Source of the DNA: an uncultured Gammaproteobacteria bacterium
Lineage (GTDB): Bacteria > Patescibacteriota > Microgenomatia > Daviesbacterales > UBA10151
Assembly: GCA_964504985.1 (NCBI GenBank)
Contig: CAZDFU010000003.1
Span: 822-64,821, forward strand
Reading direction: 5' to 3'
Length of the DNA: 64,000 bases
The position numbers and the translations under genes were made by a program. Shown one piece after another: positions 11,059 through 27,269 of this stretch (position 1 is its first letter; each line of letters starts with the position of its first letter). Under the pieces are notes generated by a model. The model saw only the letters and a program-made list of their open reading frames with translations. It ran no database searches and was not told where the DNA came from.

Positions 11059-12123
11059 TTAGATTGATTCCTGAATAGGCCTGAGAGGGAGTTCAAGGAA
11101 AAAGGTTGACCCATGCCCTATCTTGCTTTTGACCCATAATTTTCCTTTATGATGACGGATTATCTGCTGGCAGATAAACAGTCCAAGCCCCAATCCCTCT
11201 GATTTGCTTCTTACAACATCATGGGCTCTATAAAATCTGCTGAATATTTGTTTTTGGTCTTTTTTGGCTATCCCCAATCCAAAATCTCTAACACTTAAAC
11301 TTACTTTTCCTTTTGTTTCTTTTAATTTGACTATTATTTTTTTCTTTTGGGGGGAATATTTTATAGCATTTGTTAAAAGATTGGTGATAATTTGTCCAAT
11401 TCTATAGCGGTCTCCATAAAGCATCTGTTTTGATAGCCCCTTAAATTCTATAGTTCTATTTTTAGCAATGATTCTTTGATGAGCAATCACCTCTGTAGCC
11501 AGATCAGTCATGTTAAAGAATGAGTCTGAATAAGTGAATTTACCTATCTCTATGCTGGCTATATCCAGCAAATCATTAATAAGTTCCAGCATTTTATTTG
11601 TAGCTTCAGCAATAGAATGCCCGTATGAGGTAGTTTTGTCATTACCTTTTGCCTTTTCTACTATTAAATTAGAAAAACCAATCACTGCGGCCAAAGGGTT
11701 TTTTAGTTCGTGAGCCATAAAAGCTATAAACTCATCTTTCTGCTCTTCCATTTCAAATCTGGCTTCCAAAGCAATGCTGATGATAACCCCTTCCACAATA
11801 AATATTGCTGTCAGCACCAAATCCCCAACAAATGGGGATGTAGAAATATCATATTTAAGAAAGATAAAATAAGTTAATGTTGCTGATAAAAGGGTAGCAA
11901 AAATCCCAGGTCTTAATCCTCCATACCAGGAGGAAACAGCCACAATGAATGAAACCATTAAAAAAGCTGTATTATGACCCAAAACATCATGGAAATAATT
12001 TTTAAGAAAAAAAACAATTGTGATCAGTAAGACAGGTAGGCCATAGCGTTTAATCCTGTTTCTTTTTTGGAAATGGGTAAGATGAACCAGTAATACTTTT
12101 ATTTTAACCCATAATTCTTCCAT
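11059..12123 (-). CDS. Sensor histidine kinase (membrane-anchored, HisKA + HATPase_c)
   Basis: N-terminal TM helices. H-box FMAHELKNPLAAV, N-box LLTNAIKYS, G-boxes DFGLGI and GLGLGLFICQQII. No adjacent response regulator. Confidence 0.8.
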   Translation of the reverse strand: MEELWVKIKVLLVHLTHFQKRNRIKRYGLPVLLITIVFFLKNYFHDVLGHNTAFLMVSFIVAVSSWYGGLRPGIFATLLSATLTYFIFLKYDISTSPFVGDLVLTAIFIVEGVIISIALEARFEMEEQKDEFIAFMAHELKNPLAAVIGFSNLIVEKAKGNDKTTSYGHSIAEATNKMLELINDLLDIASIEIGKFTYSDSFFNMTDLATEVIAHQRIIAKNRTIEFKGLSKQMLYGDRYRIGQIITNLLTNAIKYSPQKKKIIVKLKETKGKVSLSVRDFGLGIAKKDQKQIFSRFYRAHDVVRSKSEGLGLGLFICQQIIRHHKGKLWVKSKIGHGSTFFLELPLRPIQESI

Positions 12124-12381: not shown

Positions 12382-13325
<944 letters not shown>

Positions 13326-15921: not shown

Positions 15922-18176
<2,255 letters not shown>

Positions 18177-18267
18177 ATATAATAGCTGAAGACAAAAAAG
18201 ACCAAGATTTTACTTTAAGCCTATTCCGATATTTTTCCAAGCCTTCTACCTGATTTTAATTTCTACT

Positions 18268-18349
18268 AAAATTTAATGTGGTTTTGTTGGCTTAAGGATT
18301 AAGTCAAATACCCTAGGTGTCAAGCTAGTCCACCTCCCAGGTGGGATTC
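18268..18349 (+). repeat. Short palindromic repeat family 1, copy A (tgtggttttg...ccctaggtgtcaagctagtccacctcccaggtgggatt)
   Basis: Shares an 80-bp similarity block with 19821-19910 and core with 33931-33998 and 47701-47768. Contains hairpin CCACCT-CCC-AGGTGG. Confidence 0.7.
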
Positions 18350-18352
18350 TTG

Positions 18353-19885
18353 TTACAGGCTGTTTAATTTGGTGGCCAGGGAATCTTGTTCTTCATTTAG
18401 CTTTTCATCCTGCTTAACCATTTGATTTTCTGCCTCAGTTAACCACACATTTGCCTCAAGTTTAGAAATAACAGCGGAGGCTATATTTATTCTTTGGGAA
18501 ATAATTTCGTTCATCCTATCAATATCTCTTTTATTTTTACTGTAAAAATCTGGATATTCTTTTAAATTTGCCCAATTAGGTTGAATACTTTTTAAGTCAC
18601 TTAATAATTTTTTCCAGGGGTTGATAGTTTCCTGGTCATAATTTGGTGGGACATAGCCTGCTAAATGTCCAACTACTATTTGGGCTGGGCAGCCATTCAG
18701 CTGCCCCTCAACTTCTGCAATACCTATATCCTGAAAATCCTGGTTTAATAGGAATTTTTTTGAGTCTGGGAATGAGAATTGATTTTCTATTAATTCCTCT
18801 GCTTCATAATAGCCTAAAGCAGATGTTTCCCCATAAGTAATATTGGAATACCCTGCATCTGAGAGGGCTTTTTTCATGGTATAACCACTTCTGGTGGCCT
18901 CAAAAGAGAGGTCATTATATTTAAGGCTTATTTTGCCTCTGCTGGCAGCTGATGTTTCAAGTCTGGTCTGATATCTTAAGGGACCGGCACCTGCTTCTCT
19001 TCTTTTTTGGTTTAATAATTCTAAATAACGGTTTTTATCCAGCTTAATTTTTGAGATTTCTTCAAGATCTTTGTCAGTTTTTCTCCAATTTTTATCTAGT
19101 GTGTCTTTTTGTTTTTTCAAAGGGATAACATGGTCTATATCTTTAAACTCTATCAGACCCAGTGTGTGCCTTGAATCCCCGCTTCCCTTTCTATTGTCCC
19201 CCATAACAAATAATTTTCCAGCAGGAACTGTCAGGCTTTTGCAGTCAGCTAAAAACTCTCCCCCAAAAGTAGACCTGGCTTTAAAAATATATGGTTCTTT
19301 TTGAGGCTTACCATTTAAAAGTAATACCCCGTCTTTTATTTCTAATGTATCTGCAGGCAGTGCAATAACTCTTTTAACAAAACCTCTTGGTTTATCCCCG
19401 TCTTTGGTAGTTATTTCTGCTGTTTTAAAATTATAAAAAGAGACTATATCCCCTCTTTCTATTTCATAAGAAAATAATTTATATCCAAATAAATTAAGAC
19501 CAGAAGGATACCTCATCATTCCAGTAGTGCCTACTATTTCCTTTGATTGTTCCTCTGGGGTTTTGCCTTCACCTTTGGGAAAAGTGGGATACATTGACCC
19601 AGTTCCTGACAGTGGGATATAATCTTCCACCAGGTTTAATTTGTCCAATACTAAAAAAGCAGTTAATTTATATGAACTAATCCAAACAGGTACCAAAATC
19701 AAGAGGGTTATTAGGGCAAGAAAGGGCAGAAGAAATCTTTTTACAATTAAATATCCAATTGTTACAAAACTAAAATATTTTTTCATGAACTTACTAATAA
19801 TATAATAATTTATTGTGGTTTTGATGGGTTTTGCTATCCTTAGTCCTAGGGATACAGAAATTTCCCTAGGTGTCAACCTGGGCAC
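18353..19885 (-). CDS. Signal peptidase I fused to C-terminal CAP/SCP (YkwD-like) domain
   Basis: N-terminal TM. SGSMYPTF (box B Ser), KRVIALPADTL (box D Lys), GDNRKGSGDSR (box E). C-terminal half LLNQKRREAGAGPL...YGETSALGYYEAEELIENQFSFPDSKKFLLNQDFQDIGIAEVEG resembles CAP/PR-1 domain. Confidence 0.6.
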   Translation of the reverse strand: MPRLTPREISVSLGLRIAKPIKTTINYYIISKFMKKYFSFVTIGYLIVKRFLLPFLALITLLILVPVWISSYKLTAFLVLDKLNLVEDYIPLSGTGSMYPTFPKGEGKTPEEQSKEIVGTTGMMRYPSGLNLFGYKLFSYEIERGDIVSFYNFKTAEITTKDGDKPRGFVKRVIALPADTLEIKDGVLLLNGKPQKEPYIFKARSTFGGEFLADCKSLTVPAGKLFVMGDNRKGSGDSRHTLGLIEFKDIDHVIPLKKQKDTLDKNWRKTDKDLEEISKIKLDKNRYLELLNQKRREAGAGPLRYQTRLETSAASRGKISLKYNDLSFEATRSGYTMKKALSDAGYSNITYGETSALGYYEAEELIENQFSFPDSKKFLLNQDFQDIGIAEVEGQLNGCPAQIVVGHLAGYVPPNYDQETINPWKKLLSDLKSIQPNWANLKEYPDFYSKNKRDIDRMNEIISQRINIASAVISKLEANVWLTEAENQMVKQDEKLNEEQDSLATKLNSL

Positions 19886-19910
19886 CTCCCAGGTGGGATT
19901 TACCGTTTAA
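19821..19910 (+). repeat. Short palindromic repeat family 1, copy B
   Basis: tgtggttttgatgg...gaaatttccctaggtgtcaacctgggcacctcccaggtgggattt. Overlaps the last codons of the 176-aa ORF. Confidence 0.7.
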
Positions 19911-20430
19911 GGTCTGCAGGGGCTCTTAGGTATGGATTGTTTTCCAGATGACTGGAATTATTTGCAGAATTTTGAACCTGGGGAGGGTTTTCTTTAAAAA
20001 CCCCTATCCCCTCTATTACACCAAGGGTTTGTTGGTTTCCTGGCTGGGTAGTTAAATCCTGGGAAATTGTGGCTACTTCTTTGTTGGTAGAACTTACTGA
20101 AGGCAATTGTTTTATTAAGGAGATGGTTTCTTCCCTGTTTTGCCAGGCAAGTAATTTACTTTCATCTTCAGCTACTTCTCCCATTTTTTCTTCAAGGTTT
20201 GTTAAAGGAACATCTATTTCTCCTCTTTCCACAATATCCCCTAAAATATCTCCTGCATTGGCAATATGTTCAAAAGGCAGGCCTGCTAAAGCATAAGCCT
20301 TGATGGTATTAACATATTGGGTATAATTTTGTTGTTGGGAAGTTATTTTAAATGATTTCGCCCTGGTTAAAGGATGGGATGATTGTGAACTCAAAAGATC
20401 ATTCTTTGGGGCAGTTAAATTATTATGCAT
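19900..20430 (-). CDS. Hypothetical protein (176 aa); C-terminal residues encoded by repeat copy B
   Basis: ORF; no motif; final ~4 codons lie within the repeat. Confidence 0.4.
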   Translation of the reverse strand: MHNNLTAPKNDLLSSQSSHPLTRAKSFKITSQQQNYTQYVNTIKAYALAGLPFEHIANAGDILGDIVERGEIDVPLTNLEEKMGEVAEDESKLLAWQNREETISLIKQLPSVSSTNKEVATISQDLTTQPGNQQTLGVIEGIGVFKENPPQVQNSANNSSHLENNPYLRAPADLKR

Positions 20431-20488
20431 AGAAATGGATTCTACCAGATCTACTCAAGTATTTACTATTGGAGTATAATCTCACAAT

Positions 20489-21976
20489 ATGCAGATCCCA
20501 CAGACTCATATCAATATTAAAGTTAGAGATCTTTTTAAAAAGATCTATCAGGGCAGGAAAATTAATTTAGCTGCTTCTAAAAGTTCTTTAGAAATGCAGC
20601 TTAATTTATATTTGGACCATTTAAGCAGCCACACATTTGTAAAAATATCCCAAAGAGACAGAAAAAGGATCTGGGAAACAATTGAAAGAAACAACCATGT
20701 TGCCAAAACTTTATCTTCCCCTTTATATAGAAAAATTGTTAAAAGCAAAAGGGAGCTTTCCAAAGAAGTATCTATTGGGTTTGTTTTTTGTATTGATGGC
20801 AGGATTCCTGCCATTTTTTTAGGAGGAAGGTTTGCCAGGCATTTTGAGATTCCTGCTGGAGAAATATCAATCATTAGAAGAAAATCAGATGGCAGAATAA
20901 TTCCAGACTCTTCTGATTTAAATGAGGCTTTAAGAAAAACAGCCACCTCAAATGATGATTTATTGGAGATTGTGTTTGCTCATACTTCTTTATCAAACCC
21001 CCATCATGGTTGCGGGGCTATGATTGCCAAGATGAGGGCAGGTTTGCTTGATCCAAAACTTTCTTTAGAGGAGGCAAATTTAAAAATAATAAGAGATAGG
21101 ACTATTCCGGCAATTTCTAATATTTATAATGAGTTTAGAATTCAACAAGGGAATGAACCCTTGAAAATGGTGGGAATTTCCGCGCTTTTTGACACAGATA
21201 CTTTTGGCATAATTTTAAACTATGATTTAAGAAAGGCCAATAATTCCTTATCTACAACAGACCTTACAAATAAGTATGCTTCAGAGTTGGATGAGTACTT
21301 CATCAAAAACAATTTAGTATTTGGATCATTTAAAGAAAAATTCTCTGATTTAAAATTTTTAATCCCCCTTTCCCAGAATACATTAAAAATAGTTGAGGCT
21401 TTGCTTAATAAAAAAATAGCACCAAAACTTTTAGATGAGATTGGAGAATATATAAATAAGTTTTATTCTGATCTGACAGAAGATCAAAAACAGGCATTAA
21501 TTTTTGTATTGCTAAGAAACATTGCTTTTCAATATTTAACAGGGCTGGCTAAATTTAAGAAAAAAAGTGCTGATCATCCTTTTTTGGAACATGGAGAATC
21601 TTTTTTAGCTGTGGCTATGAGAGGAACGACCATTGGTAAATTTGATCCTCAAAATCAGGGATTTGCCTCCTCCCCTTCTGATCCTAAGCAGGCAATTTCT
21701 AATATTAATACCATGCTTTCTATTATGGGTGATTCCTCAAAACTTAAGCCCTATATTTTATTTGTCTGTAACAGTGTTAACAGCAGGGACTTAAGGGAAA
21801 ATAACCAGGTTATACAAAGGATAATTGGTTCAAATGCAGGCTTACTTAGGGATATTATTGAAGATAAGAAATTGGGTGAGATGATAGAAAAAGGTGAGAT
21901 GATACCAGTGCCTGTTTTAATTGAGGAAGATTCAAGGGAAGTTTTAAAAATAGTTGACCATTCAGGATATATTTAA
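20489..21976 (+). CDS. Beta-class carbonic anhydrase-like domain protein with long C-terminal extension (495 aa)
   Basis: FCIDGRIP (C-x-D-x-R) and NPHHGCGAM (H-x-x-C-G) ~60 aa apart, the two zinc-ligand signatures of beta-CA. Confidence 0.45.
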   Translation: MQIPQTHINIKVRDLFKKIYQGRKINLAASKSSLEMQLNLYLDHLSSHTFVKISQRDRKRIWETIERNNHVAKTLSSPLYRKIVKSKRELSKEVSIGFVFCIDGRIPAIFLGGRFARHFEIPAGEISIIRRKSDGRIIPDSSDLNEALRKTATSNDDLLEIVFAHTSLSNPHHGCGAMIAKMRAGLLDPKLSLEEANLKIIRDRTIPAISNIYNEFRIQQGNEPLKMVGISALFDTDTFGIILNYDLRKANNSLSTTDLTNKYASELDEYFIKNNLVFGSFKEKFSDLKFLIPLSQNTLKIVEALLNKKIAPKLLDEIGEYINKFYSDLTEDQKQALIFVLLRNIAFQYLTGLAKFKKKSADHPFLEHGESFLAVAMRGTTIGKFDPQNQGFASSPSDPKQAISNINTMLSIMGDSSKLKPYILFVCNSVNSRDLRENNQVIQRIIGSNAGLLRDIIEDKKLGEMIEKGEMIPVPVLIEEDSREVLKIVDHSGYI

Positions 21977-22043
21977 TTGACTAGGCTGGTATAATGTAAA
22001 TTAAGAATGCGACCCCCTAAAAAGGGTCGGTTTTTTAAAAGAT

Positions 22044-23132
22044 ATGAGTGAGCAGATAAAAGAGCCAATAAATCCTCAGCATTTACTTGAGGATAACTAT
22101 TCTGATAAAGCAGGAGAAAACATAGAAAAAATTCTTCAATTAAGAAAGGAAGGTCAACTTATACTTTTAATGGGTTGTTCAGATGCCAGGCTTATTTTGC
22201 CTGATGATGTTTACCAGATTAGAACCATCTCAGCCACAGGGCCAAGAAGCCCTTGGGAAAAACCTTTAAATTACGGAAGAACAGCTGGGGTAATAATTAT
22301 GGATCATTTATATTGCGGGGGTTTACTGGCAAAGGCTCAGCTTCCTGAAAACATTTTAGATGATGATACAGCTTTAGGATTTGTTAAAGATCACGTGTGG
22401 ACTGACGATCCGATTGTTCAGTCTATTCTGACTGGTTCATGGACAGCATCACGTACTCAAAAACCAGTTTTATCTGCTGTTCAGAATCCATATGATGGTT
22501 CGGTTTATATCCAAGGAGCTTTCAATAATGGTGAGCAAACCGAGCATAAAACTATTCCTACATATAAACTAATGCAAAGATATATTAAAGAAAAATTATA
22601 CGGTGATGAAATTCCTCAATTAAGGCCTGATTTAGTCCTCTCAATTTTTTCTAATATTTTGGGCCGGTTACCAGAAAAAGTTAAATTAATAGCTGAAAGT
22701 GTAGGAGATTTAACAACTTATCAAGGTACACAAGACCCGGAAGTGGTTGCTGTGACGTCTAACTTAAAAGCACTTTCAGCAAGATTCCCTGCTCTTTTTG
22801 GTCTTTCAAATACTGTTTTTCAGGTTAGCTTAAGAAGACAATCACTAGATATTGAAGGAGAATTAGAAACAAATGATGTAAGGGAGGTTTTCAGGCAAAT
22901 ACATTATCCTCTTTCCCATTGTATTGAAAATAATAAATCTGAAGGTAGATTACCATTTAAAAGTACAAGGGTTTTATATTTAGAAACTGGAGATATGAAA
23001 GATTCTCTTAGGCTGGCCCATCGTGTTAAAAGAAGGCGTGAAGTACAGGAGTGGTTAGATCTGCCAGGCAGAGTCATAATAGCAGCACAAGCTGTAAGAG
23101 GAAGAATCCAGCAAATTGAACTGGTTGTATAG
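22044..23132 (+). CDS. Beta-class carbonic anhydrase-like domain protein, second paralog (362 aa)
   Basis: GCSDARLILP (C-x-D-x-R) and IMDHLYCGG (H-x-x-C-G) ~45 aa apart. Confidence 0.45.
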   Translation: MSEQIKEPINPQHLLEDNYSDKAGENIEKILQLRKEGQLILLMGCSDARLILPDDVYQIRTISATGPRSPWEKPLNYGRTAGVIIMDHLYCGGLLAKAQLPENILDDDTALGFVKDHVWTDDPIVQSILTGSWTASRTQKPVLSAVQNPYDGSVYIQGAFNNGEQTEHKTIPTYKLMQRYIKEKLYGDEIPQLRPDLVLSIFSNILGRLPEKVKLIAESVGDLTTYQGTQDPEVVAVTSNLKALSARFPALFGLSNTVFQVSLRRQSLDIEGELETNDVREVFRQIHYPLSHCIENNKSEGRLPFKSTRVLYLETGDMKDSLRLAHRVKRRREVQEWLDLPGRVIIAAQAVRGRIQQIELVV

Positions 23133-23165
23133 AATCATTAAAACTTGCTATAATTTCTTCAACAA

Positions 23166-23576
23166 ATGTCACAGCTTCATTTAAAAATTGTAACTCCAGA
23201 GAAATTGCTAGTTGATGAAGAGGTTTCCCAGGTTAATGTTTCAACTGTTAGCGGGATGATTGGAATTTTACCGAATCATGCTAATTTAATGGCTAAACTT
23301 GCTCCCGGGGAGTTAACTATTAAAAAAGGTGGAAAAGTTGAGACTTTGGCAATAGGTTCAGGTTTTTTACAAGTTTCTGATAATACTTTATCTATCATGA
23401 CAGATTTAGCAACCCCTGAATCAGACATTGATGAAAAAGCTGTTGAGGAGGCTAAAAAAAGAGCAGAAGCTGCTTTGGAAGAAAAACTCTCTGATGAAGA
23501 ATATGCAGAAACCCTGGCTAATTTGGAAAAATCCTTAGCCCAGCTTAGGGTTAAAAGAAGGCATAAGGTAAGATAA
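23166..23576 (+). CDS. atpC: F0F1 ATP synthase subunit epsilon
   Basis: MSQLHLKIVTPEKLLVDEEVSQVNVSTVSGMIGILPNHANLMAKLAPGEL...AQLRV matches epsilon beta-sandwich + helical hairpin. Separated from atpD by ~5 kb. Confidence 0.85.
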   Translation: MSQLHLKIVTPEKLLVDEEVSQVNVSTVSGMIGILPNHANLMAKLAPGELTIKKGGKVETLAIGSGFLQVSDNTLSIMTDLATPESDIDEKAVEEAKKRAEAALEEKLSDEEYAETLANLEKSLAQLRVKRRHKVR

Positions 23577-23669: not shown

Positions 23670-24602
23670 ATGGCTAGTTTAGAAAGCCCTGATCTTTCAA
23701 TTATTATCCTAAATTATAATGTTAAGGAGCTATTATTAAAATGTTTGGAGTCTATTTTTAAAGACCCTAATTCTAAAAACTGGCAGGTTATTGTGGTGGA
23801 TAATGCTTCAGAGGATGGTTCTGCAGAAGCTGTTAAGAAAAAATATCTGAATTCCCAAATCCAAGTTGAAGTTGTGGAAAGCAAGGAAAATCTGGGCTTT
23901 GCAGGAGGTAATAATTTAGGAGTAAAATATGCCAAAGCTCAGGCTGTTTTATTTTTAAATCCAGATACTTTGGTTGTGGGAGATGCTGTCTCTAAATCTT
24001 TGGAGTTTTTGTTATCTAACCCAGATATAGGAGCCCTAACTTGCAGAGTGGAGCTGCCTGATGGGAAACTAGATTACTCCTGTCACAGAGGTTTCCCTAC
24101 TCCCTGGAATTCTTTTGCTTATTTTAGTGGTCTTTCTAGAGTTTTTCCCCGTTTCCGGCTGTTTTCAGGATACACTGCCTCTTATCAAAATATTAAAACC
24201 ATACATGAGATAGATTGTTTAACTGGAGCATATCTTATGGTTAGAAAAATTGCCGGTGATCAAATAAATTGGTGGGATGAAGATTATTTTTGGAATGGTG
24301 AAGATATTGAATTTTGTTACTCTTTAAAAGAAAAAGGTTGGAAAATATTTTTTTATCCAGAGGCAAAAATTATTCATTATAAAGGTTCATCCTCTGGTCT
24401 CTGGTCTTCTAAAGCAGTTTCTGTTGAGAAAGAGAAAATGTTTACCAGCGCTTCTCATGCAGCTTCAGCCATGAGGATTTTTTATATGAAGCATTACTTT
24501 AAAAAATACCCGGTAGTTTTAAGGGAATTTATTTTATGGGGAATTAAATCTTTGGAACACTTCAGAAAGTTTAAAATCAGAGTGGGGTTAAGGTATAAGT
24601 GA
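23670..24602 (+). CDS. Family 2 glycosyltransferase
   Basis: IIILNYNVKELLLKCLESI...VVDNASEDGS; DxD region; GT-A fold. Confidence 0.8.
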   Translation: MASLESPDLSIIILNYNVKELLLKCLESIFKDPNSKNWQVIVVDNASEDGSAEAVKKKYLNSQIQVEVVESKENLGFAGGNNLGVKYAKAQAVLFLNPDTLVVGDAVSKSLEFLLSNPDIGALTCRVELPDGKLDYSCHRGFPTPWNSFAYFSGLSRVFPRFRLFSGYTASYQNIKTIHEIDCLTGAYLMVRKIAGDQINWWDEDYFWNGEDIEFCYSLKEKGWKIFFYPEAKIIHYKGSSSGLWSSKAVSVEKEKMFTSASHAASAMRIFYMKHYFKKYPVVLREFILWGIKSLEHFRKFKIRVGLRYK

Positions 24603-24603
24603 C

Positions 24604-25491
24604 ATGGATTTATCAATAATAATACTAAGCTATAATACAAAAGATATTACCGGTCAATGTTTACTGAAGTTAAAGAGTGCTGTAGACAGTTTACAAAAGA
24701 AAACAGGCAATAATGCAGAGGTCATTGTTTTGGATAATGCTTCATCAGACGGATCTGTTGAAATGATTAAAACCAATTACCCCTGGGTTCAGCTAATTGA
24801 ATCAAAAGAAAATACAGGGTTTTCCAGGGGCAATAATTTAGCATTTAAAAAAACCAGATACCCCAATATTTTATTTTTAAACTCTGATGTTTATGTTGGC
24901 GAGGATACATTAATTAAAAGTTTGGAATATTTTAAAAATCATGGTTGTAATGTCTTGGGAGTTAGGCTTGTTTTTGAAAATGGAAAATTCCAACCCTCGG
25001 CCGGAAATTTACCAACACCAATTAATACTATTTTTTGGATATTAGGATTTGGACAACTGTTTAACCCATTTCATCCTAAAAGTGAGAATTTTTTTTCCCA
25101 GGAAAGAGAAGTAGGTTGGATTATGGGAGCATTTTTTATGATTAAAAGAGAAACTTTTATCAGTGCTGGTGGATTTGATGAGAATATTTTTATGTATATG
25201 GATGAGATTGATCTTTGCAAAAGGGTTTCAGATCTGGGTTTTAAGATCTGCTATGCCCCAGTTACTGAGGCAGTCCATCTGCACAGGGCCAGCAGCAAGG
25301 ATAATCCTGAGAAAGCCTTTACATTGGAGCTTAAGGGTATGAAGGTTTATCTTAAAAAATATCATGGATCCTGGTATCAGGTAATTAAATTATTTTTGAT
25401 CCTTGGGTTGGTTTTAAGAGTGATTGCTTTTTCCTTGTTTGGAAGAACAGCTAGAGCTAGGGCTTATATTGAAGGACTAAAAGAAGTATGA
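24604..25491 (+). CDS. Family 2 glycosyltransferase
   Basis: SIIILSYNTKD...VLDNASSDGS; overlapping start with upstream GT. Confidence 0.8.
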   Translation: MDLSIIILSYNTKDITGQCLLKLKSAVDSLQKKTGNNAEVIVLDNASSDGSVEMIKTNYPWVQLIESKENTGFSRGNNLAFKKTRYPNILFLNSDVYVGEDTLIKSLEYFKNHGCNVLGVRLVFENGKFQPSAGNLPTPINTIFWILGFGQLFNPFHPKSENFFSQEREVGWIMGAFFMIKRETFISAGGFDENIFMYMDEIDLCKRVSDLGFKICYAPVTEAVHLHRASSKDNPEKAFTLELKGMKVYLKKYHGSWYQVIKLFLILGLVLRVIAFSLFGRTARARAYIEGLKEV

Positions 25492-27269
25492 AAATTGCAA
25501 TTATTACACTTAATTACAATGGTAAAGAAGATACTTTGGAGTTACTAAATTCTTTAAAAAAACTAAGATCTAAAATCTATGATCTTAAAACTATAGTAGT
25601 GGATAATGCTTCAGAAGATGGAAGCGTGGGCGCTATTCACAAGGCTTTCCCTGAAGTAGATATTCTCCAGACAGGAGAAAATTTAGGCTTTGGACAGGGA
25701 TATAATAAAGGTTTTGAATATGCCAAAATCTGGGGGCCTGACTATTACTTGCTGATAAACAATGACTCAAAAATAGAAGACCCTAAACTTTTAGATAAGT
25801 TGCTGCAGGTATTTAAAAAAGATCCAAAAATTGGGATGGTTGCTCCTAAGATTTTATTTGAAAAGGGGTTTGAGTTTCATAAAGACAGGTACTCAAGTGA
25901 TGATTTAGGAAAAGTTATATGGTATGGGGGTGGTTTTATGGATTGGAATAATATACGCTCAGTTCACAGGGGCATAGATGAAGTTGATAGGGGTCAGTAT
26001 TCAGAAGTGGAAGAAGTGGGTTTTATCAGTGGTGCCTGTTTTTTAATTAAAAAAGAAGTTTTAGAAAAAGTTGGTGGATTCAGTGGAGATTATTTTCTAT
26101 ATTTTGAGGATGCCCAATTTTGTAAAAAAGTTTTAGAAGCAGGATATAAGTTATATTACTGCGGGCAAACTGTAATCAACCATAAAGTATCCCGTTCCAC
26201 AGGCATTGGTTCCAGCTTAACTGATTATTACCATACCAGGAATAGGCTTATTTTTGGCATGAAATATGGAAGGTTTAGGGCAAAGTTTGCCCTGGTTAGA
26301 GAAGCTATCAAGTTGTTGCTTATTGGCAGGCCTGCCCAAAGAAAAGGATTACTGGATTTTTATCTGGGAATAAGAGGAAAAGGAGAAGAGTCCCCAGGTG
26401 TCCCAACCGTGTATCCGTTAAAACTGTCCATTGGAATTGTTAATTATAAAACAGCCCAATTAACAAAAAAACTACTGGAAAGTATCTTTAAAAAAGATTC
26501 AGGATTTGATTCCAAAACAATGGAAGTTATAGTTTTGGACAATGGGTCAGAAGATAATTGTAAAGAAGCTATAAAAGAATTTTTGCCCAGGATAAAATAT
26601 CTGGAAAATAAAGAAAATGAAGGGTTTAGCAGAGGTTATAATAAAACCATAAACTTCTCTTTGGGTAAACATTATTTAATGTTTAACTCTGATATTGAAG
26701 TATTACCAGGCAGCTTATCTGAAATCCTTAAGGCAGCAGAGCATTTTGAGGGAAAGGCAGTTTTATCTGGGAAACTATTTTTTCCAGATAAAACAGATCA
26801 GGATTCTGTCTATCACTTGCCTACCCTTTCTGGCGCTTTTGATGAATATTTCTTAGGTAAGAATGGATCTTATTTTATGTACCTGCCTCGCCATAAGGCG
26901 GGTCAGCCAAAGTCTGAAGAATATACAAAAGTAGAAGGAGCAGTAATGGCTTGTTTTTTGATACCAAAATATATTTTAAATAAAGTAGGGCTTTTGGATG
27001 AGCAGACTTTTATTTATTTTGAGGATATAGAATATTGCAGGCGTTTAAAAAAGTTTGGATTCCCTGTTTATTTTGTACCTTCTGCCCATTTTATTCATCA
27101 CCATGGTGCTTCATCTAAAACTATAGGAGTTGATAAATCCCAGGCTCTTTTACAAAAAGCAGCCAGGCATTACCATGGAGGTTTTTATTATTTTCTCCTC
27201 TCCTGGGTATTGAGGTTAGGCCAGAAATTTGGCAGGGTTCAAACCCCTGTATCAAGGTGGACTAAATAA
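25488..27269 (+). CDS. Tandem double family 2 glycosyltransferase (two GT-A domains, 593 aa)
   Basis: N-terminal IAIITLNYNGKEDT...VVDNASEDGS and second LSIGIVNYKTAQ...VLDNGSEDN with downstream DxD-like motifs. Confidence 0.75.
   Translation: MKIAIITLNYNGKEDTLELLNSLKKLRSKIYDLKTIVVDNASEDGSVGAIHKAFPEVDILQTGENLGFGQGYNKGFEYAKIWGPDYYLLINNDSKIEDPKLLDKLLQVFKKDPKIGMVAPKILFEKGFEFHKDRYSSDDLGKVIWYGGGFMDWNNIRSVHRGIDEVDRGQYSEVEEVGFISGACFLIKKEVLEKVGGFSGDYFLYFEDAQFCKKVLEAGYKLYYCGQTVINHKVSRSTGIGSSLTDYYHTRNRLIFGMKYGRFRAKFALVREAIKLLLIGRPAQRKGLLDFYLGIRGKGEESPGVPTVYPLKLSIGIVNYKTAQLTKKLLESIFKKDSGFDSKTMEVIVLDNGSEDNCKEAIKEFLPRIKYLENKENEGFSRGYNKTINFSLGKHYLMFNSDIEVLPGSLSEILKAAEHFEGKAVLSGKLFFPDKTDQDSVYHLPTLSGAFDEYFLGKNGSYFMYLPRHKAGQPKSEEYTKVEGAVMACFLIPKYILNKVGLLDEQTFIYFEDIEYCRRLKKFGFPVYFVPSAHFIHHHGASSKTIGVDKSQALLQKAARHYHGGFYYFLLSWVLRLGQKFGRVQTPVSRWTK

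What the first reader, a model, noticed from the sequence alone, without database searches (positions are those of the whole stretch)
20489..23132. Two tandem, highly divergent beta-carbonic-anhydrase-like paralogs with long unique C-terminal extensions
Both proteins carry the beta-CA zinc-ligand signatures C-x-D-x-R (CIDGR / CSDAR) and H-x-x-C-G (HHGCG / HLYCGG) at appropriate spacing. Overall similarity to canonical beta-CAs is otherwise low.

The extensions are 300 aa and 230 aa with no recognisable domains.

They could be divergent CAs, or CA-fold proteins repurposed for another function (for example CS2/COS hydrolase-like).
Basis: partly seen in the sequence, partly recalled or inferred. 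Interest (0 to 1): 0.55.

Follow-up and report, generated by a model that had tools for sequence, protein, structure and literature searches.

The report
Carbonic anhydrase genes inside ATP-synthase operon
Two adjacent genes in a Daviesbacteria-like (candidate phyla radiation) genome encode very divergent zinc carbonic anhydrases, one built like the carboxysome enzyme CsoSCA; relatives carry different carbonic-anhydrase genes at the same spot inside the ATP-synthase operon, which hints at an unstudied link between CO2/bicarbonate chemistry and ATP synthase.

Summary
Both ORFs are real (A: 20489-21976, 495 aa; B: 22044-23132, 362 aa) and both belong to the beta-carbonic-anhydrase (CA) superfamily, but they are not detectable paralogs.

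**ORF-A.** It is a full-length structural homolog of the carboxysomal enzyme CsoSCA (Foldseek E 1e-10 to 2e-9; the top four hits are all CsoSCA). Its zinc site is CsoSCA-style: C101-x-D103-x-R105, H165 and C175. The family has about 174 clusters at 50% identity. Named members are all Patescibacteria, and Pfam's CsoSCA models miss it.

**ORF-B.** It belongs to a 19-member family (named members are Daviesbacteria). The N-terminal half is a canonical beta-CA (C45-S-D47-A-R49, H88-x-x-C91-G-G). The model best matches the tandem-repeat beta-CA 1DDZ.

The "unique extensions" are therefore structured domains, probably degenerate second CA-like halves, as in CsoSCA.

**Context (unexpected).** Both genes lie between atpD and atpC. 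In relatives this slot holds A alone, A plus a zeta-CA (CDCA) gene, two divergent A paralogs, or Pro_CA_2 plus B. In one distant locus A is the first gene of the atp operon.

The most likely function is cytoplasmic CO2/HCO3-/H+ interconversion serving an H+-type F1Fo ATPase. The superfamily assignment is well supported. Catalysis and the coupling to the ATPase are inferred.

The parts
20489..21976 (+). ORF-A, 495 aa: CsoSCA-like three-domain beta-class carbonic anhydrase. Approximate domains: N-terminal helical domain residues 1-92; catalytic domain about 93-359; C-terminal domain without zinc ligands about 360-495.
   Evidence: ORF call. AF2 model pLDDT 89.7, pTM 0.90. Foldseek top four hits are all CsoSCA (8thm, 9g4t, 2fgy), E 1.4e-10 to 2.1e-9, about 540-550 aligned columns, TM about 0.5. 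Profile A4 hits 8thm_A at E 0.021 over the catalytic stretch. No transmembrane segment or signal peptide.
20789..20803 (+). ORF-A codons for C101-I-D103-G-R105: first zinc ligand plus the Asp-Arg dyad.
   Evidence: C101 and D103 are invariant, G104 and R105 at least 90% conserved, in 106 sequences. Aligned to CADGR of Cyanobium CsoSCA. Codon positions.
20981..21013 (+). ORF-A codons H165 to C175 (AHTSLSNPHHGC): second and third zinc ligands with CsoSCA-type spacing.
   Evidence: H165 and C175 are invariant in 106 sequences. H172 and H173 vary. Aligned to YHFSSLDPQHEGC of 8thm.
21590..21664 (+). ORF-A C-terminal-domain residues H368, E370, Q390 and F392: a conserved polar cluster outside the zinc site, of unknown role.
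   Evidence: H368, E370 and Q390 are at least 90% conserved in 106 sequences. Q390 and F392 are invariant in the 35-sequence set. The role (completing the active-site cleft, or a regulatory site) is inference only.
22010..22036 (+). Terminator-like hairpin (CGACCC...GGGTCG) plus a T-run in the 67-nt A-B spacer, preceded by TGgTATAAT at 21987-21995.
   Evidence: These are consensus matches only; function is not shown.
22044..23132 (+). ORF-B, 362 aa: divergent beta-CA. The N-terminal half (about residues 1-195) carries the catalytic residues. The C-terminal half (about 196-362) has a similar helix/strand order but no conserved Cys or His.
   Evidence: ORF call. AF2 pLDDT 84.5, pTM 0.85. Foldseek best hit is 1ddz_A, the tandem beta-CA of Porphyridium (E 1.5e-7, 436 columns), followed by many single-domain beta-CAs. 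Profile A2 against PDB: 7 of 8 weak hits are beta-CAs, aligned at CSDAR and HxxCGG. 10 of 18 members give weak PF00484 hits. One member (P0091) is named 'Carbonic anhydrase' by UniRef.
22176..22190 (+). ORF-B codons C45-S-D47-A-R49.
   Evidence: C45, S46, D47 and R49 are invariant in 18 sequences. Codons.
22305..22322 (+). ORF-B codons H88-L-Y-C91-G-G: the canonical beta-CA H-x-x-C-G-G.
   Evidence: Invariant in 18 sequences. Aligned with HYGCGG of E. coli Can and with PDB beta-CAs.
16806..18176 (+). atpD (F1 beta subunit): upstream border of the slot.
   Evidence: ORF call. 80-86% identical to the AtpD genes flanking the same slot in loci L003-L029.
23166..23576 (+). atpC (F1 epsilon subunit), 33 nt downstream of ORF-B: downstream border of the slot.
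   Evidence: PF02823 E 4e-25 and PF00401 E 6e-9. TGcTATAAT at 23146-23154.
18353..20430 (-). Two minus-strand genes that also occupy the slot: a signal peptidase I / CAP-like fusion (18353-19885) and orf176 (19900-20430).
   Evidence: PF10502 E 2.5e-23. orf176 homologs (37-51% identity) lie in the same slot in L010, L014 and L028.

Best explanation
ORF-A and ORF-B are two independent, soluble cytoplasmic zinc enzymes of the beta-carbonic-anhydrase superfamily. Both most likely catalyse CO2 + H2O <-> HCO3- + H+.

**ORF-A** is a remote relative of the alpha-carboxysomal CsoSCA. It has an N-terminal helical domain, a catalytic domain with a Cys101/His165/Cys175 zinc site and an Asp103-Arg105 dyad, and a C-terminal domain that has lost the ligands and packs against the catalytic domain as a pseudo-dimer partner. 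No carboxysome genes were seen nearby.

**ORF-B** has a canonical beta-CA half (Cys45/His88/Cys91, Asp47-Arg49) followed by what looks like a degenerate second half.

**Context.** Together they form the local version of a variable 'carbonic-anhydrase cassette'. In this Daviesbacteria-like lineage the cassette occupies the gap between atpD and atpC of the F1Fo ATP-synthase operon, and a CA gene lies immediately upstream of atpC.

**Proposed role (inferred, not shown).** Rapid equilibration of CO2, bicarbonate and protons at the cytoplasmic face of an H+-coupled F1Fo enzyme. This would act as a proton buffer, source or sink for pH homeostasis and for maintaining the proton-motive force, in an organism of a group generally predicted to lack a respiratory chain (not checked for this genome).

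**Confidence by step.**
- Beta-CA superfamily with an intact metal site: about 0.9.
- Real CA activity: about 0.65.
- Functional coupling to the ATP synthase: about 0.3-0.35.
For: **Fold**
- A matches only CsoSCA structures at E<=1e-9, over its full length.
- B matches the tandem beta-CA 1DDZ at E 1.5e-7, then dozens of other beta-CAs.
- Both models are confident.

**Sequence**
- Catalytic residues are invariant across 106 A-family sequences down to 18% identity and across 18 B-family sequences.
- The broad A profile hits Cyanobium CsoSCA at E 0.021, with correct ligand-to-ligand alignment.
- The B profile hits beta-CAs and 10 of 18 members hit PF00484 weakly.
- Neither protein has a transmembrane segment or signal peptide.

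**Context: A, or an A-family paralog, lies between atpD and atpC in every sampled locus where atpD and/or atpC is also on the contig, except L022.** This includes all loci whose A is >=49% identical to the window's.
- Gaps to atpC are 13-35 nt.
- Gaps from atpD are only 2 nt (L009) and 6 nt (L029).

**Context: the slot carries different CA classes in different genomes.**
- A + B: the window.
- Pro_CA_2 (E 1.3e-16) + B: L003-L007.
- A + zeta-CA CDCA (E 2.6e-22): L009; CDCA-related ORFs also in L015, L018 and L019.
- Two divergent A-family paralogs: L013, L028, L029.
- A alone: L008, L010, L014.

**Context: an independent arrangement.** In L022 a 34%-identical A is the first gene, 82 nt upstream of atpB.

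**Other points**
- The c-subunit (13122-13325...AFAEAIAIY...) lacks the Na+-binding Gln/Ser-Thr signature. This points to H+ coupling (plus textbook knowledge of c-ring motifs).
- A distant A member sits next to NhaA and a Na+/H+ exchanger, again an ion/pH-homeostasis context.
Against:
- The sequence-level links to known CA families are all below curated thresholds.
- The atp linkage is seen mainly in one lineage (AtpD 80-86% identical), so much of it could be vertical inheritance of one ancestral insertion.
- The loci were retrieved through A or B, so the sample is biased. No census of atp operons lacking CA genes could be made.
- More distant A-family genes are not atp-linked: tgt-A-fmt, and a radical-SAM neighbourhood.
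- The slot also holds unrelated genes (signal peptidase, Fic/MazE, glyoxalase, GNATs, methyltransferase). This fits a permissive insertion hotspot.
- A terminator-like hairpin lies between A and B, and there are separate -10-like boxes before B and atpC. Co-transcription is therefore unproven.
Confidence: 0.6

Rival explanations
1. The genes are genuine carbonic anhydrases, but their position in the atp operon has no functional meaning. The atpD-atpC gap in this lineage is simply a tolerated insertion hotspot, and the CA genes do general housekeeping (bicarbonate supply, CO2 removal).
For: - The slot also contains unrelated cargo: signal peptidase and orf176 in the window; Fic/MazE/AHSA1; glyoxalase; GNATs and a PMT-like protein in a 13-kb slot; a methyltransferase.
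- Distant A-family genes are elsewhere in the genome.
- There are possible separate promoters and a terminator-like hairpin.
Against: - At least four CA classes (CsoSCA-like A with its divergent paralogs, B, Pro_CA_2, zeta-CA) recur in the same slot. About 10 of 14 informative slots carry two different CA-type genes.
- A CA gene is almost always the gene directly upstream of atpC.
- L029 and L009 have tight co-directional atpD-CA junctions of 6 and 2 nt.
- L022 links A to the operon at a different position.
Confidence: 0.35
2. One or both proteins use the beta-CA fold and zinc site for another small-molecule hydrolysis (COS or CS2 hydrolase-like) rather than CO2 hydration.
For: COS and CS2 hydrolases share the Cys-His-Cys / Asp-Arg site with beta-CAs (established knowledge), so residue conservation cannot tell them apart. 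Both families are far from characterised CAs.
Against: - No COSase or CS2 hydrolase structure appears among the top 50 Foldseek hits of either model. The hits are CsoSCA and ordinary beta-CAs.
- The partner genes in the slot (Pro_CA_2, CDCA) are CA families, not sulfur-metabolism genes.
- No sulfur-metabolism genes were seen among the neighbours examined.
Confidence: 0.1
3. The proteins are CO2/bicarbonate-binding regulators or assembly partners of the F1 sector (for example acting with epsilon) rather than bulk catalysts. The degenerate second domains would serve as interaction or ligand-sensing modules.
For: - The CA gene is adjacent to atpC, which encodes the regulatory subunit.
- A conserved polar cluster (H368, E370, Q390) lies in the ligand-less C-terminal domain of A.
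- In Cyanobium CsoSCA the C-terminal domain forms an allosteric RuBP site (PMC11086599, read).
- Cassette proteins diverge very fast (21-29% identity) beside a conserved AtpD (80-86%).
Against: Full conservation of the catalytic Asp-Arg dyad and the zinc ligands is what one expects of an enzyme. There is no evidence of interaction, and none of the tools could test complexes.
Confidence: 0.1
4. The motifs are chance matches in unrelated hypothetical proteins.
For: No Pfam, NCBIfam or PDB sequence hit for the two window proteins themselves.
Against: Invariance of exactly these residues across deep alignments, and independent structure-based matches to CsoSCA and beta-CAs with Foldseek probability 1.00.
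Confidence: 0.02

Closest known systems
CsoSCA, the alpha-carboxysome shell carbonic anhydrase (PDB 2FGY, 8THM, 9G4T; Pfam PF20687/PF20686/PF08936)
   Same: ORF-A shares several features with CsoSCA:
- The three-domain architecture, over its full length.
- The Cys-x-Asp-x-Arg motif followed by His-x(~10)-Cys zinc-site spacing.
- A C-terminal domain that has no conserved zinc-ligand set.
- A similar size, 495 aa against about 460-520 aa.
   Different: - Sequence identity is only 11-13% in the structural alignments.
- Pfam CsoSCA models do not detect the family: 2 sub-threshold hits in about 110 members.
- No carboxysome shell, CsoS2 or RuBisCO genes were found among the neighbours examined (locus tables).
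- The named hosts are Patescibacteria, a group generally described as non-autotrophic (background knowledge).
- The Rubisco-binding N-terminal peptide was not examined.
CsoSCA2, the non-carboxysomal CsoSCA homologs (PMC9164163; also called 'non-cso isoforms' in PMC11086599)
   Same: Stand-alone CsoSCA-type enzymes outside carboxysome loci, with an active plus a defunct domain and all catalytic residues. They are reported in several CPR phyla: Falkow-, Magasanik-, Moran-, Pace-, Staskawicz- and Uhrbacteria.
   Different: - CsoSCA2 was defined by Pfam08936 hits. Family A has none.
- Daviesbacteria are not listed, and ATP synthase is not mentioned in that paper.
- CsoSCA2 has a truncated N-terminal domain of about 40 aa, whereas ORF-A has about 90 aa of helices before the catalytic strand.
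- Family A is best seen as a further, more divergent branch.
Canonical beta-CAs (PF00484; E. coli Can, H. influenzae HICA) and the tandem-repeat beta-CA of Porphyridium purpureum (1DDZ)
   Same: ORF-B has the canonical C-S-D-A-R and H-x-x-C-G-G motifs and the beta-CA fold. Like 1DDZ, it appears to place two beta-CA-like halves on one chain.
   Different: - In ORF-B only the first half keeps the ligands. Both halves are active in 1DDZ (background knowledge).
- The Cys-to-His spacing is 43 residues, against 56 in E. coli Can (spacing recalled; the Can sequence was fetched).
- PF00484 scores stay below the gathering threshold.
- The family has only 19 members among 5.8 billion proteins.
- The two halves show no sequence similarity to each other.
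DabA/DabB (DAB) and cyanobacterial CupA/B-NDH-1: carbonic-anhydrase-like proteins coupled to ion-motive membrane machinery
   Same: This is a conceptual analogy only. A divergent beta-CA-like protein is genetically tied to a proton-translocating membrane complex, so that CO2/HCO3- conversion and H+ flux are linked (bioRxiv 10.1101/476713 appeared; the mechanism is from background knowledge).
   Different: No homology to DabA was detected. The partner here would be F1Fo ATP synthase, not an Mrp/NDH-type subunit. No vectorial CO2 hydration is implied by any data here.
Pro_CA_2 (PF20393) and zeta-CA / CDCA (PF18484)
   Same: They occupy the same atpD-atpC slot in related genomes, as partners of B or A.
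   Different: They are different CA families. No copy is present in this window.

Membership tests
Beta-carbonic anhydrase superfamily (fold level) | Alpha/beta core fold shared with solved beta-CAs | tested here: met
   A: CsoSCA structures at E 1e-10 to 2e-9, then Nce103, Cab and CcaA. B: 1DDZ at E 1.5e-7, then HICA, Can, psCA3 and CafA, most with probability 0.8-0.99.
Beta-carbonic anhydrase superfamily (fold level) | Cys, His, Cys zinc ligands plus the Asp-Arg dyad (C-x-D-x-R) | tested here: met
   A: C101, D103, H165 and C175 invariant; R105 at least 90% conserved in 106 sequences. B: C45, D47, R49, H88 and C91 invariant in 18 sequences.
Beta-carbonic anhydrase superfamily (fold level) | The three ligands converge on one metal site in 3D | not testable with these tools
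   Model coordinates are not exposed. This is only implied by the fold matches.
Beta-carbonic anhydrase superfamily (fold level) | Zinc binding and CO2 hydration activity | not testable with these tools
   Requires biochemistry.
Pfam PF00484 Pro_CA (canonical beta-CA), for ORF-B | Profile score at or above the gathering threshold (25.7 bits) | tested here: not met
   ORF-B has no hit at E<=1. 10 of 18 relatives hit, best E 0.0021, all sub-threshold. Profile against PDB beta-CAs gives E 0.024-1.
Pfam PF00484 Pro_CA (canonical beta-CA), for ORF-B | H-x-x-C-G-G and C-S-D-x-R signatures | tested here: met
CsoSCA (Pfam PF20686 / PF08936 / PF20687; NCBIfam shell CA model), for ORF-A | Profile match to the CsoSCA catalytic, C-terminal and N-terminal domain models | tested here: not met
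   No hit for ORF-A. Only 2 sub-threshold PF20686 hits (E 5e-4 and 0.017) and no PF08936 or PF20687 hit appeared in any scan of about 110 family members.
CsoSCA (Pfam PF20686 / PF08936 / PF20687; NCBIfam shell CA model), for ORF-A | Three-domain architecture with a ligand-less C-terminal pseudo-dimer domain, and His-x(~10)-Cys spacing | tested here: met
   Full-length Foldseek alignments of about 540-550 columns. Ligand alignment to 8thm. No conserved zinc-ligand triad after residue 360.
CsoSCA (Pfam PF20686 / PF08936 / PF20687; NCBIfam shell CA model), for ORF-A | Located in a cso (alpha-carboxysome) operon with csoS2, shell proteins and cbbLS | tested here: not met
   The neighbours are atp genes, a signal peptidase and glycosyltransferases. 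No BMC or RuBisCO Pfam families appear in any related locus table.
CsoSCA2 (non-carboxysomal CsoSCA homologs, PMC9164163) | Pfam08936 match outside a carboxysome locus | tested here: not met
   The location criterion is met. The Pfam08936 match is absent.
COS / CS2 hydrolases (beta-CA fold) | Closest structural neighbours are COSase or CS2 hydrolase; narrow hydrophobic substrate tunnel | tested here: inconclusive
   None appear among the top 50 Foldseek hits for either model. Tunnel geometry is not testable here.

The most novel reading that the evidence does not exclude
In a lineage of Patescibacteria, a group generally predicted to lack a respiratory chain, carbonic anhydrases have become accessory components of the F1Fo ATP-synthase operon. 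CA-catalysed CO2/HCO3-/H+ interconversion at the cytoplasmic face would be mechanistically coupled to proton flux through the enzyme. It could act as a bicarbonate-dependent proton sink or source that sustains or dissipates delta-pH, or as a CO2/bicarbonate-responsive regulator acting with epsilon. The rapidly diversifying CsoSCA-like, beta-, Pro_CA_2- and zeta-type genes would be interchangeable solutions to that one need. The CsoSCA fold would then have a pre-carboxysomal, bioenergetic role.
Probability: 0.2. Interest if true: 0.85.

Novelty: new variant of a known kind. Interest (0 to 1): 0.6.

Why it matters
**The CsoSCA architecture reaches further than thought.**
- CsoSCA was long regarded as carboxysome-specific. 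Non-carboxysomal 'CsoSCA2' genes were noted only in 2022 and remain unstudied.
- Family A has about 174 clusters at 50% identity and is invisible to Pfam. Its named members come from Patescibacteria, a group regarded as non-autotrophic.
- This supports the idea that the carboxysomal enzyme was recruited from an older cytoplasmic family.

**The atp-operon context gives a testable lead on Patescibacteria physiology.**
- At least four CA classes, and divergent paralogs of them, recur between atpD and atpC.
- Why organisms thought to lack an electron-transport chain keep an F1Fo ATPase, and how they manage pH and proton-motive force, are open questions.
- I found no paper linking CA genes to atp operons in these bacteria.

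**Practical use.** The two alignments are seeds for new profile models. Automated annotation currently calls nearly all members 'hypothetical'.

Tried and rejected
**Direct searches that found nothing**
- Pfam and NCBIfam scans of both proteins: no CA model at E<=1.
- phmmer of both proteins against PDB: nothing relevant.
- The 35-sequence A profile against PDB: nothing. Only the 106-sequence profile reached CsoSCA (E 0.021). Its top hits, designed armadillo repeats, are an artefact of one short segment matching a repeated unit.

**The paralog hypothesis: rejected**
- BLASTP E 0.68.
- hhalign probability 0.3%.

**Internal duplication at sequence level**
- Comparisons of the B N-half with its C-half, of the A catalytic domain with its C-terminal domain, and cross-comparisons all showed no signal.
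- The 'degenerate second CA half' of B therefore rests only on the 1DDZ match and on secondary-structure order.

**Other weak or failed attempts**
- hhalign of the A and B profiles against E. coli Can: only a 22-column HxxCGG match for B (probability 38%) and noise for A.
- The search for related loci with the full A1 alignment failed because no stretch was conserved enough. The closer set A3 gave 4 genome loci and 10 metagenome loci.
- The window's own protein P0001 is not indexed in the look-up of encoding contigs.
- The profile search for more B relatives found no new members.
- Cluster look-up gave no taxonomy for distant A members.

**Context ideas rejected**
- Carboxysome context: no BMC, RuBisCO or CsoS2 genes among the neighbours examined.
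- A Na+-coupled ATPase: the c-subunit lacks the Na+ motif.

Full report
**1. Observation**

The two ORFs exist as described. ORF-A is at 20489-21976 (+), 495 aa, and ORF-B is at 22044-23132 (+), 362 aa.
- A contains CIDGR (residues 101-105) and HHGCG (172-176).
- B contains CSDAR (45-49) and HLYCGG (88-93).
- Neither has a signal peptide or a transmembrane segment.
- GC content is about 34-36% across this region, similar to its surroundings.
- The closest homologs that carry a name are from Candidatus Daviesbacteria or the 'Patescibacteria group'. The window is therefore a CPR/Patescibacteria genome fragment.

**2. Standard annotation fails**
- Pfam and NCBIfam give no CA hit for either protein, even at E<=1.
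- phmmer against all PDB sequences gives nothing relevant.
- The two proteins show no similarity to each other by BLASTP (E 0.68), by profile-profile comparison (probability 0.3%), or by domain-wise comparison.
- They are not paralogs in any detectable sense.

**3. Families**

ORF-A:
- It has 87 relatives in the 5.8-billion-protein set, down to 26% identity.
- An exhaustive profile search finds 174 clusters at 50% identity.
- Across 106 full-length members, down to 18% identity, the invariant columns are C101, D103, H165 and C175.
- G104, R105, G240, H368, E370 and Q390 are at least 90% conserved.
The zinc histidine is H165, in 'AHTS'.

ORF-B:
- It has only 19 relatives, and a profile search adds none.
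- C45, S46, D47, R49, H88, C91, G92 and G93 are invariant.
- One member (P0091) is already called 'Carbonic anhydrase' by UniRef.

**4. What ORF-A is**
- The AF2 model is confident (pLDDT 89.7, pTM 0.90).
- Against the PDB, its only strong matches are the four CsoSCA structures: 8thm chains A and C (Cyanobium), and 9g4t and 2fgy (Halothiobacillus). E-values are 1.4e-10 to 2.1e-9, probability 1.00, with about 540-550 aligned columns and TM about 0.5. The match therefore covers all three domains. Ordinary beta-CAs follow at E>=0.03.
- The 106-sequence profile also reaches Cyanobium CsoSCA by sequence alone (E 0.021). It aligns C-I-D-G-R with C-A-D-G-R and AHTS...HGCG with YHFSS...EGCAAH.
- This is the CsoSCA ligand pattern of Cys, Asp-Arg, then His-x(~10)-Cys. 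It differs from the canonical H-x-x-C.
- Pfam's CsoSCA models nevertheless miss the family. There are two sub-threshold PF20686 hits and no PF08936 hit in any scan of about 110 members.

Non-carboxysomal CsoSCA homologs ('CsoSCA2') were described in 2022 (PMC9164163). They were defined by Pfam08936 matches and reported in several CPR phyla, but not in Daviesbacteria. Pulsford et al. (PMC11086599) also mention 'smaller uncharacterized non-cso isoforms'. ORF-A is therefore a new, more divergent branch of a known kind, not a new kind.

**5. What ORF-B is**
- The AF2 model has pLDDT 84.5 and pTM 0.85.
- Its best match is the Porphyridium purpureum beta-CA 1DDZ, a natural tandem repeat of two beta-CA domains (E 1.5e-7, 436 columns). 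Dozens of single-domain beta-CAs follow: HICA, E. coli Can, psCA3 and CafA.
- The family profile hits PDB beta-CAs weakly but consistently. Seven of its eight hits are beta-CAs, aligned at CSDAR and HxxCGG.
- 10 of 18 members hit PF00484 below threshold.
- The C-terminal half (about residues 196-362) repeats the order of helices and strands of the N-terminal half. It has no conserved Cys or His.
- I read it as a degenerate second beta-CA domain, the same 'active plus defunct' pseudo-dimer logic as in CsoSCA. This rests on structure only, because the two halves show no sequence similarity.

**6.

The window carries a complete F1Fo operon: atpB at 12382, the c-subunit gene at 13122, then b, delta, alpha, gamma and beta, ending at 18176. 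atpC is displaced to 23166-23576. The 5-kb gap contains two minus-strand genes (a signal peptidase I / CAP-like fusion, and orf176), followed by A and B on the plus strand. B ends 33 nt before atpC.

I mapped AtpG, AtpD, AtpC, A, B, Pro_CA_2 and CDCA onto 29 related loci. Every locus whose A is >=49% identical to the window's has A in this same atpD-atpC slot. The content of the slot varies:

| Slot content | Loci |
|---|---|
| A alone | L008/L012, L010, L014, L016 |
| A + B | this window only |
| Pro_CA_2 (PF20393, E 1.3e-16; minus strand) + B | L003-L007 |
| A + zeta-CA CDCA (PF18484, E 2.6e-22) | L009 |
| A + CDCA-related ORF | L015, L018, L019 |
| Two divergent A-family paralogs in tandem | L013, L028, L029 |

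- The tandem-paralog assignments rest on hhalign E 5e-11 for L013 and E 2e-65 for L028, and on tblastn for L029.
- In L029 the order is atpG-atpD-[A-like]-[A']-atpC, all co-directional, with gaps of 6, 43 and 26 nt.
- In L009, A starts 2 nt after atpD.
- The cassette proteins in L028 and L029 are only 21-29% identical to the window's ORF-A, although the flanking AtpD is 80-86% identical.
- In L022 (AtpD 68% identical) atpD and atpC are nearly contiguous. There a 34%-identical A is the first gene of the operon, 82 nt upstream of atpB (PF00119, E 8e-47). This is an independent arrangement.
- More distant A genes are not atp-linked: tgt-A-fmt twice, a radical-SAM/DJ-1 neighbourhood, and one next to NhaA plus a Na+/H+ exchanger.

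No carboxysome, RuBisCO or bicarbonate-transporter family was seen among the neighbours I scanned (and the locus tables).

**7. How it most likely works**

Shown:
- Both proteins have beta-CA-type folds and invariant metal-site and dyad residues.
- They are soluble.
- They sit in a CA-rich cassette beside atpC.

Inferred:
- Both are active CAs. A functions as a CsoSCA-like pseudo-dimer. The conserved H368/E370/Q390 cluster of its C-terminal domain either completes the active-site cleft or forms a regulatory pocket.
- In beta-CAs the partner subunit contributes to the cleft (background knowledge). In Cyanobium CsoSCA the C-terminal domain forms the allosteric RuBP site.
- The c-subunit lacks the Na+-binding signature, so the ATPase should be H+-coupled.

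My preferred mechanism is that the CAs keep CO2, HCO3- and H+ at equilibrium at the cytoplasmic side of the F1Fo enzyme. They would buffer, supply or consume protons during ATP-driven proton export or delta-pH-driven synthesis. This would matter in organisms generally predicted to have no respiratory chain and found in bicarbonate-containing groundwater (both points are background knowledge and were not checked for this genome). It remains a hypothesis, at about 0.3-0.35.

The main rival is that the slot is an insertion hotspot with no functional meaning.
- In its favour: the unrelated cargo in the slot, the sampling bias (all loci were fetched through A or B), the shallow phylogenetic spread, and the terminator-like hairpin with separate -10-like boxes between A, B and atpC.
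- Against it: the recurrence of at least four CA classes, the frequent presence of two CA-type genes per slot, and the separate arrangement in L022.

**8. Comparison and novelty**
- ORF-A works like, and is structurally a member of, the CsoSCA branch of beta-CAs. It fails the Pfam membership test and the cso-operon criterion.
- ORF-B works like a canonical beta-CA fused to a dead copy. It also fails the PF00484 threshold.
- Both are new variants of a known kind.
- I found no paper that reports CA genes embedded in the atp operon of CPR bacteria. The searched library is incomplete.

**9. Verdict**
- The interpretation 'divergent beta-CAs' is supported by structure and by residue conservation.
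- Interest is moderate to high (0.6), mostly because of the atp-operon CA cassette and the reach of the CsoSCA fold into Patescibacteria.

Noticed in passing
window 16806-23576; loci L003-L019, L028, L029: The F1Fo operon is split. atpC is separated from atpD by a variable 1-13 kb slot. In related genomes the slot carries different carbonic-anhydrase classes (CsoSCA-like A and divergent paralogs, B, Pro_CA_2, zeta-CA CDCA) plus unrelated cargo. In most slots a CA-type gene lies directly upstream of atpC.
   Followed up: yes
L022 225-2808: A 34%-identical family-A gene is the first gene of an otherwise contiguous atp operon, 82 nt upstream of atpB. This is an independent way of linking this CA family to the ATP synthase.
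   Followed up: partly
L009 10613-11353; L015 5971-6344; L018 6360-6530; L019 9588-10232: Zeta-class (cadmium-type, PF18484 CDCA, E 2.6e-22) carbonic-anhydrase homologs occur in Patescibacteria-like contigs, right after family A. The L015, L018 and L019 copies are more divergent, and the L019 ORF has no Pfam hit.
   Followed up: partly
L006 7544-7909 (-); L003 9542-9907 (-): A 121-aa Pro_CA_2 (PF20393) gene is divergently paired with family B wherever family A is absent from the slot. B was never seen without a second CA-type gene beside it.
   Followed up: partly
window 19900-20430 (-): orf176 is a Q/N/S-rich protein with no family match. It is divergently adjacent to ORF-A and has 37-51% identical homologs in the same atpD-atpC slot in L010, L014 and L028. 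It may belong to the cassette.
   Followed up: no
window 18353-19885 (-): A 510-aa fusion of signal peptidase I (PF10502, E 2.5e-23) with a C-terminal CAP/YkwD-like region (weak hits) lies convergent to atpD.
   Followed up: no
window 21987-22036 and 23146-23154: Perfect extended -10 boxes (TGnTATAAT) lie just upstream of B and of atpC. The atpC box ends only 11 nt before the ATG, which suggests a near-leaderless transcript. The B box is followed by a terminator-like hairpin plus T-run (22010-22036) before the B start codon. Whether this is the terminator of A or an attenuator is unknown.
   Followed up: no
L013 (CAYOSW010000025.1): The contig is labelled 'uncultured Gammaproteobacteria bacterium', but its AtpD is 81.6% identical to the window's and it has the same CA-containing slot. 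It is probably a mis-binned Patescibacteria contig. Its slot is 13 kb and holds two family-A paralogs, two GNAT acetyltransferases and a PMT-like protein.
   Followed up: partly
L027 4785-9476: A distant family-A gene (about 35% identity) lies next to a Na+/H+ exchanger (PF00999) and NhaA (PF06965). This is another ion/pH-homeostasis neighbourhood.
   Followed up: no
L028 and L029 vs window: Cassette proteins are only 21-29% identical to ORF-A, while the adjacent AtpD is 80-86% identical. This suggests either very fast evolution of the CA genes or differential retention of ancient paralogs.
   Followed up: partly
window 23670-27269: A run of three family-2 glycosyltransferase genes follows atpC; the third (593 aa) contains two GT2 domains. 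This synteny is conserved in L006, L008, L010, L014 and L028.
   Followed up: no
window 11059-12123 (-): A histidine kinase (DUF4118 + HisKA + HATPase_c) lies immediately upstream of, and divergent from, the atp operon.
   Followed up: no
window 13122-13325: The ATP synthase c-subunit (67 aa, ...AFAEAIAIY...) lacks the Gln / Glu-Ser/Thr Na+-binding signature, so the enzyme is probably H+-coupled.
   Followed up: partly
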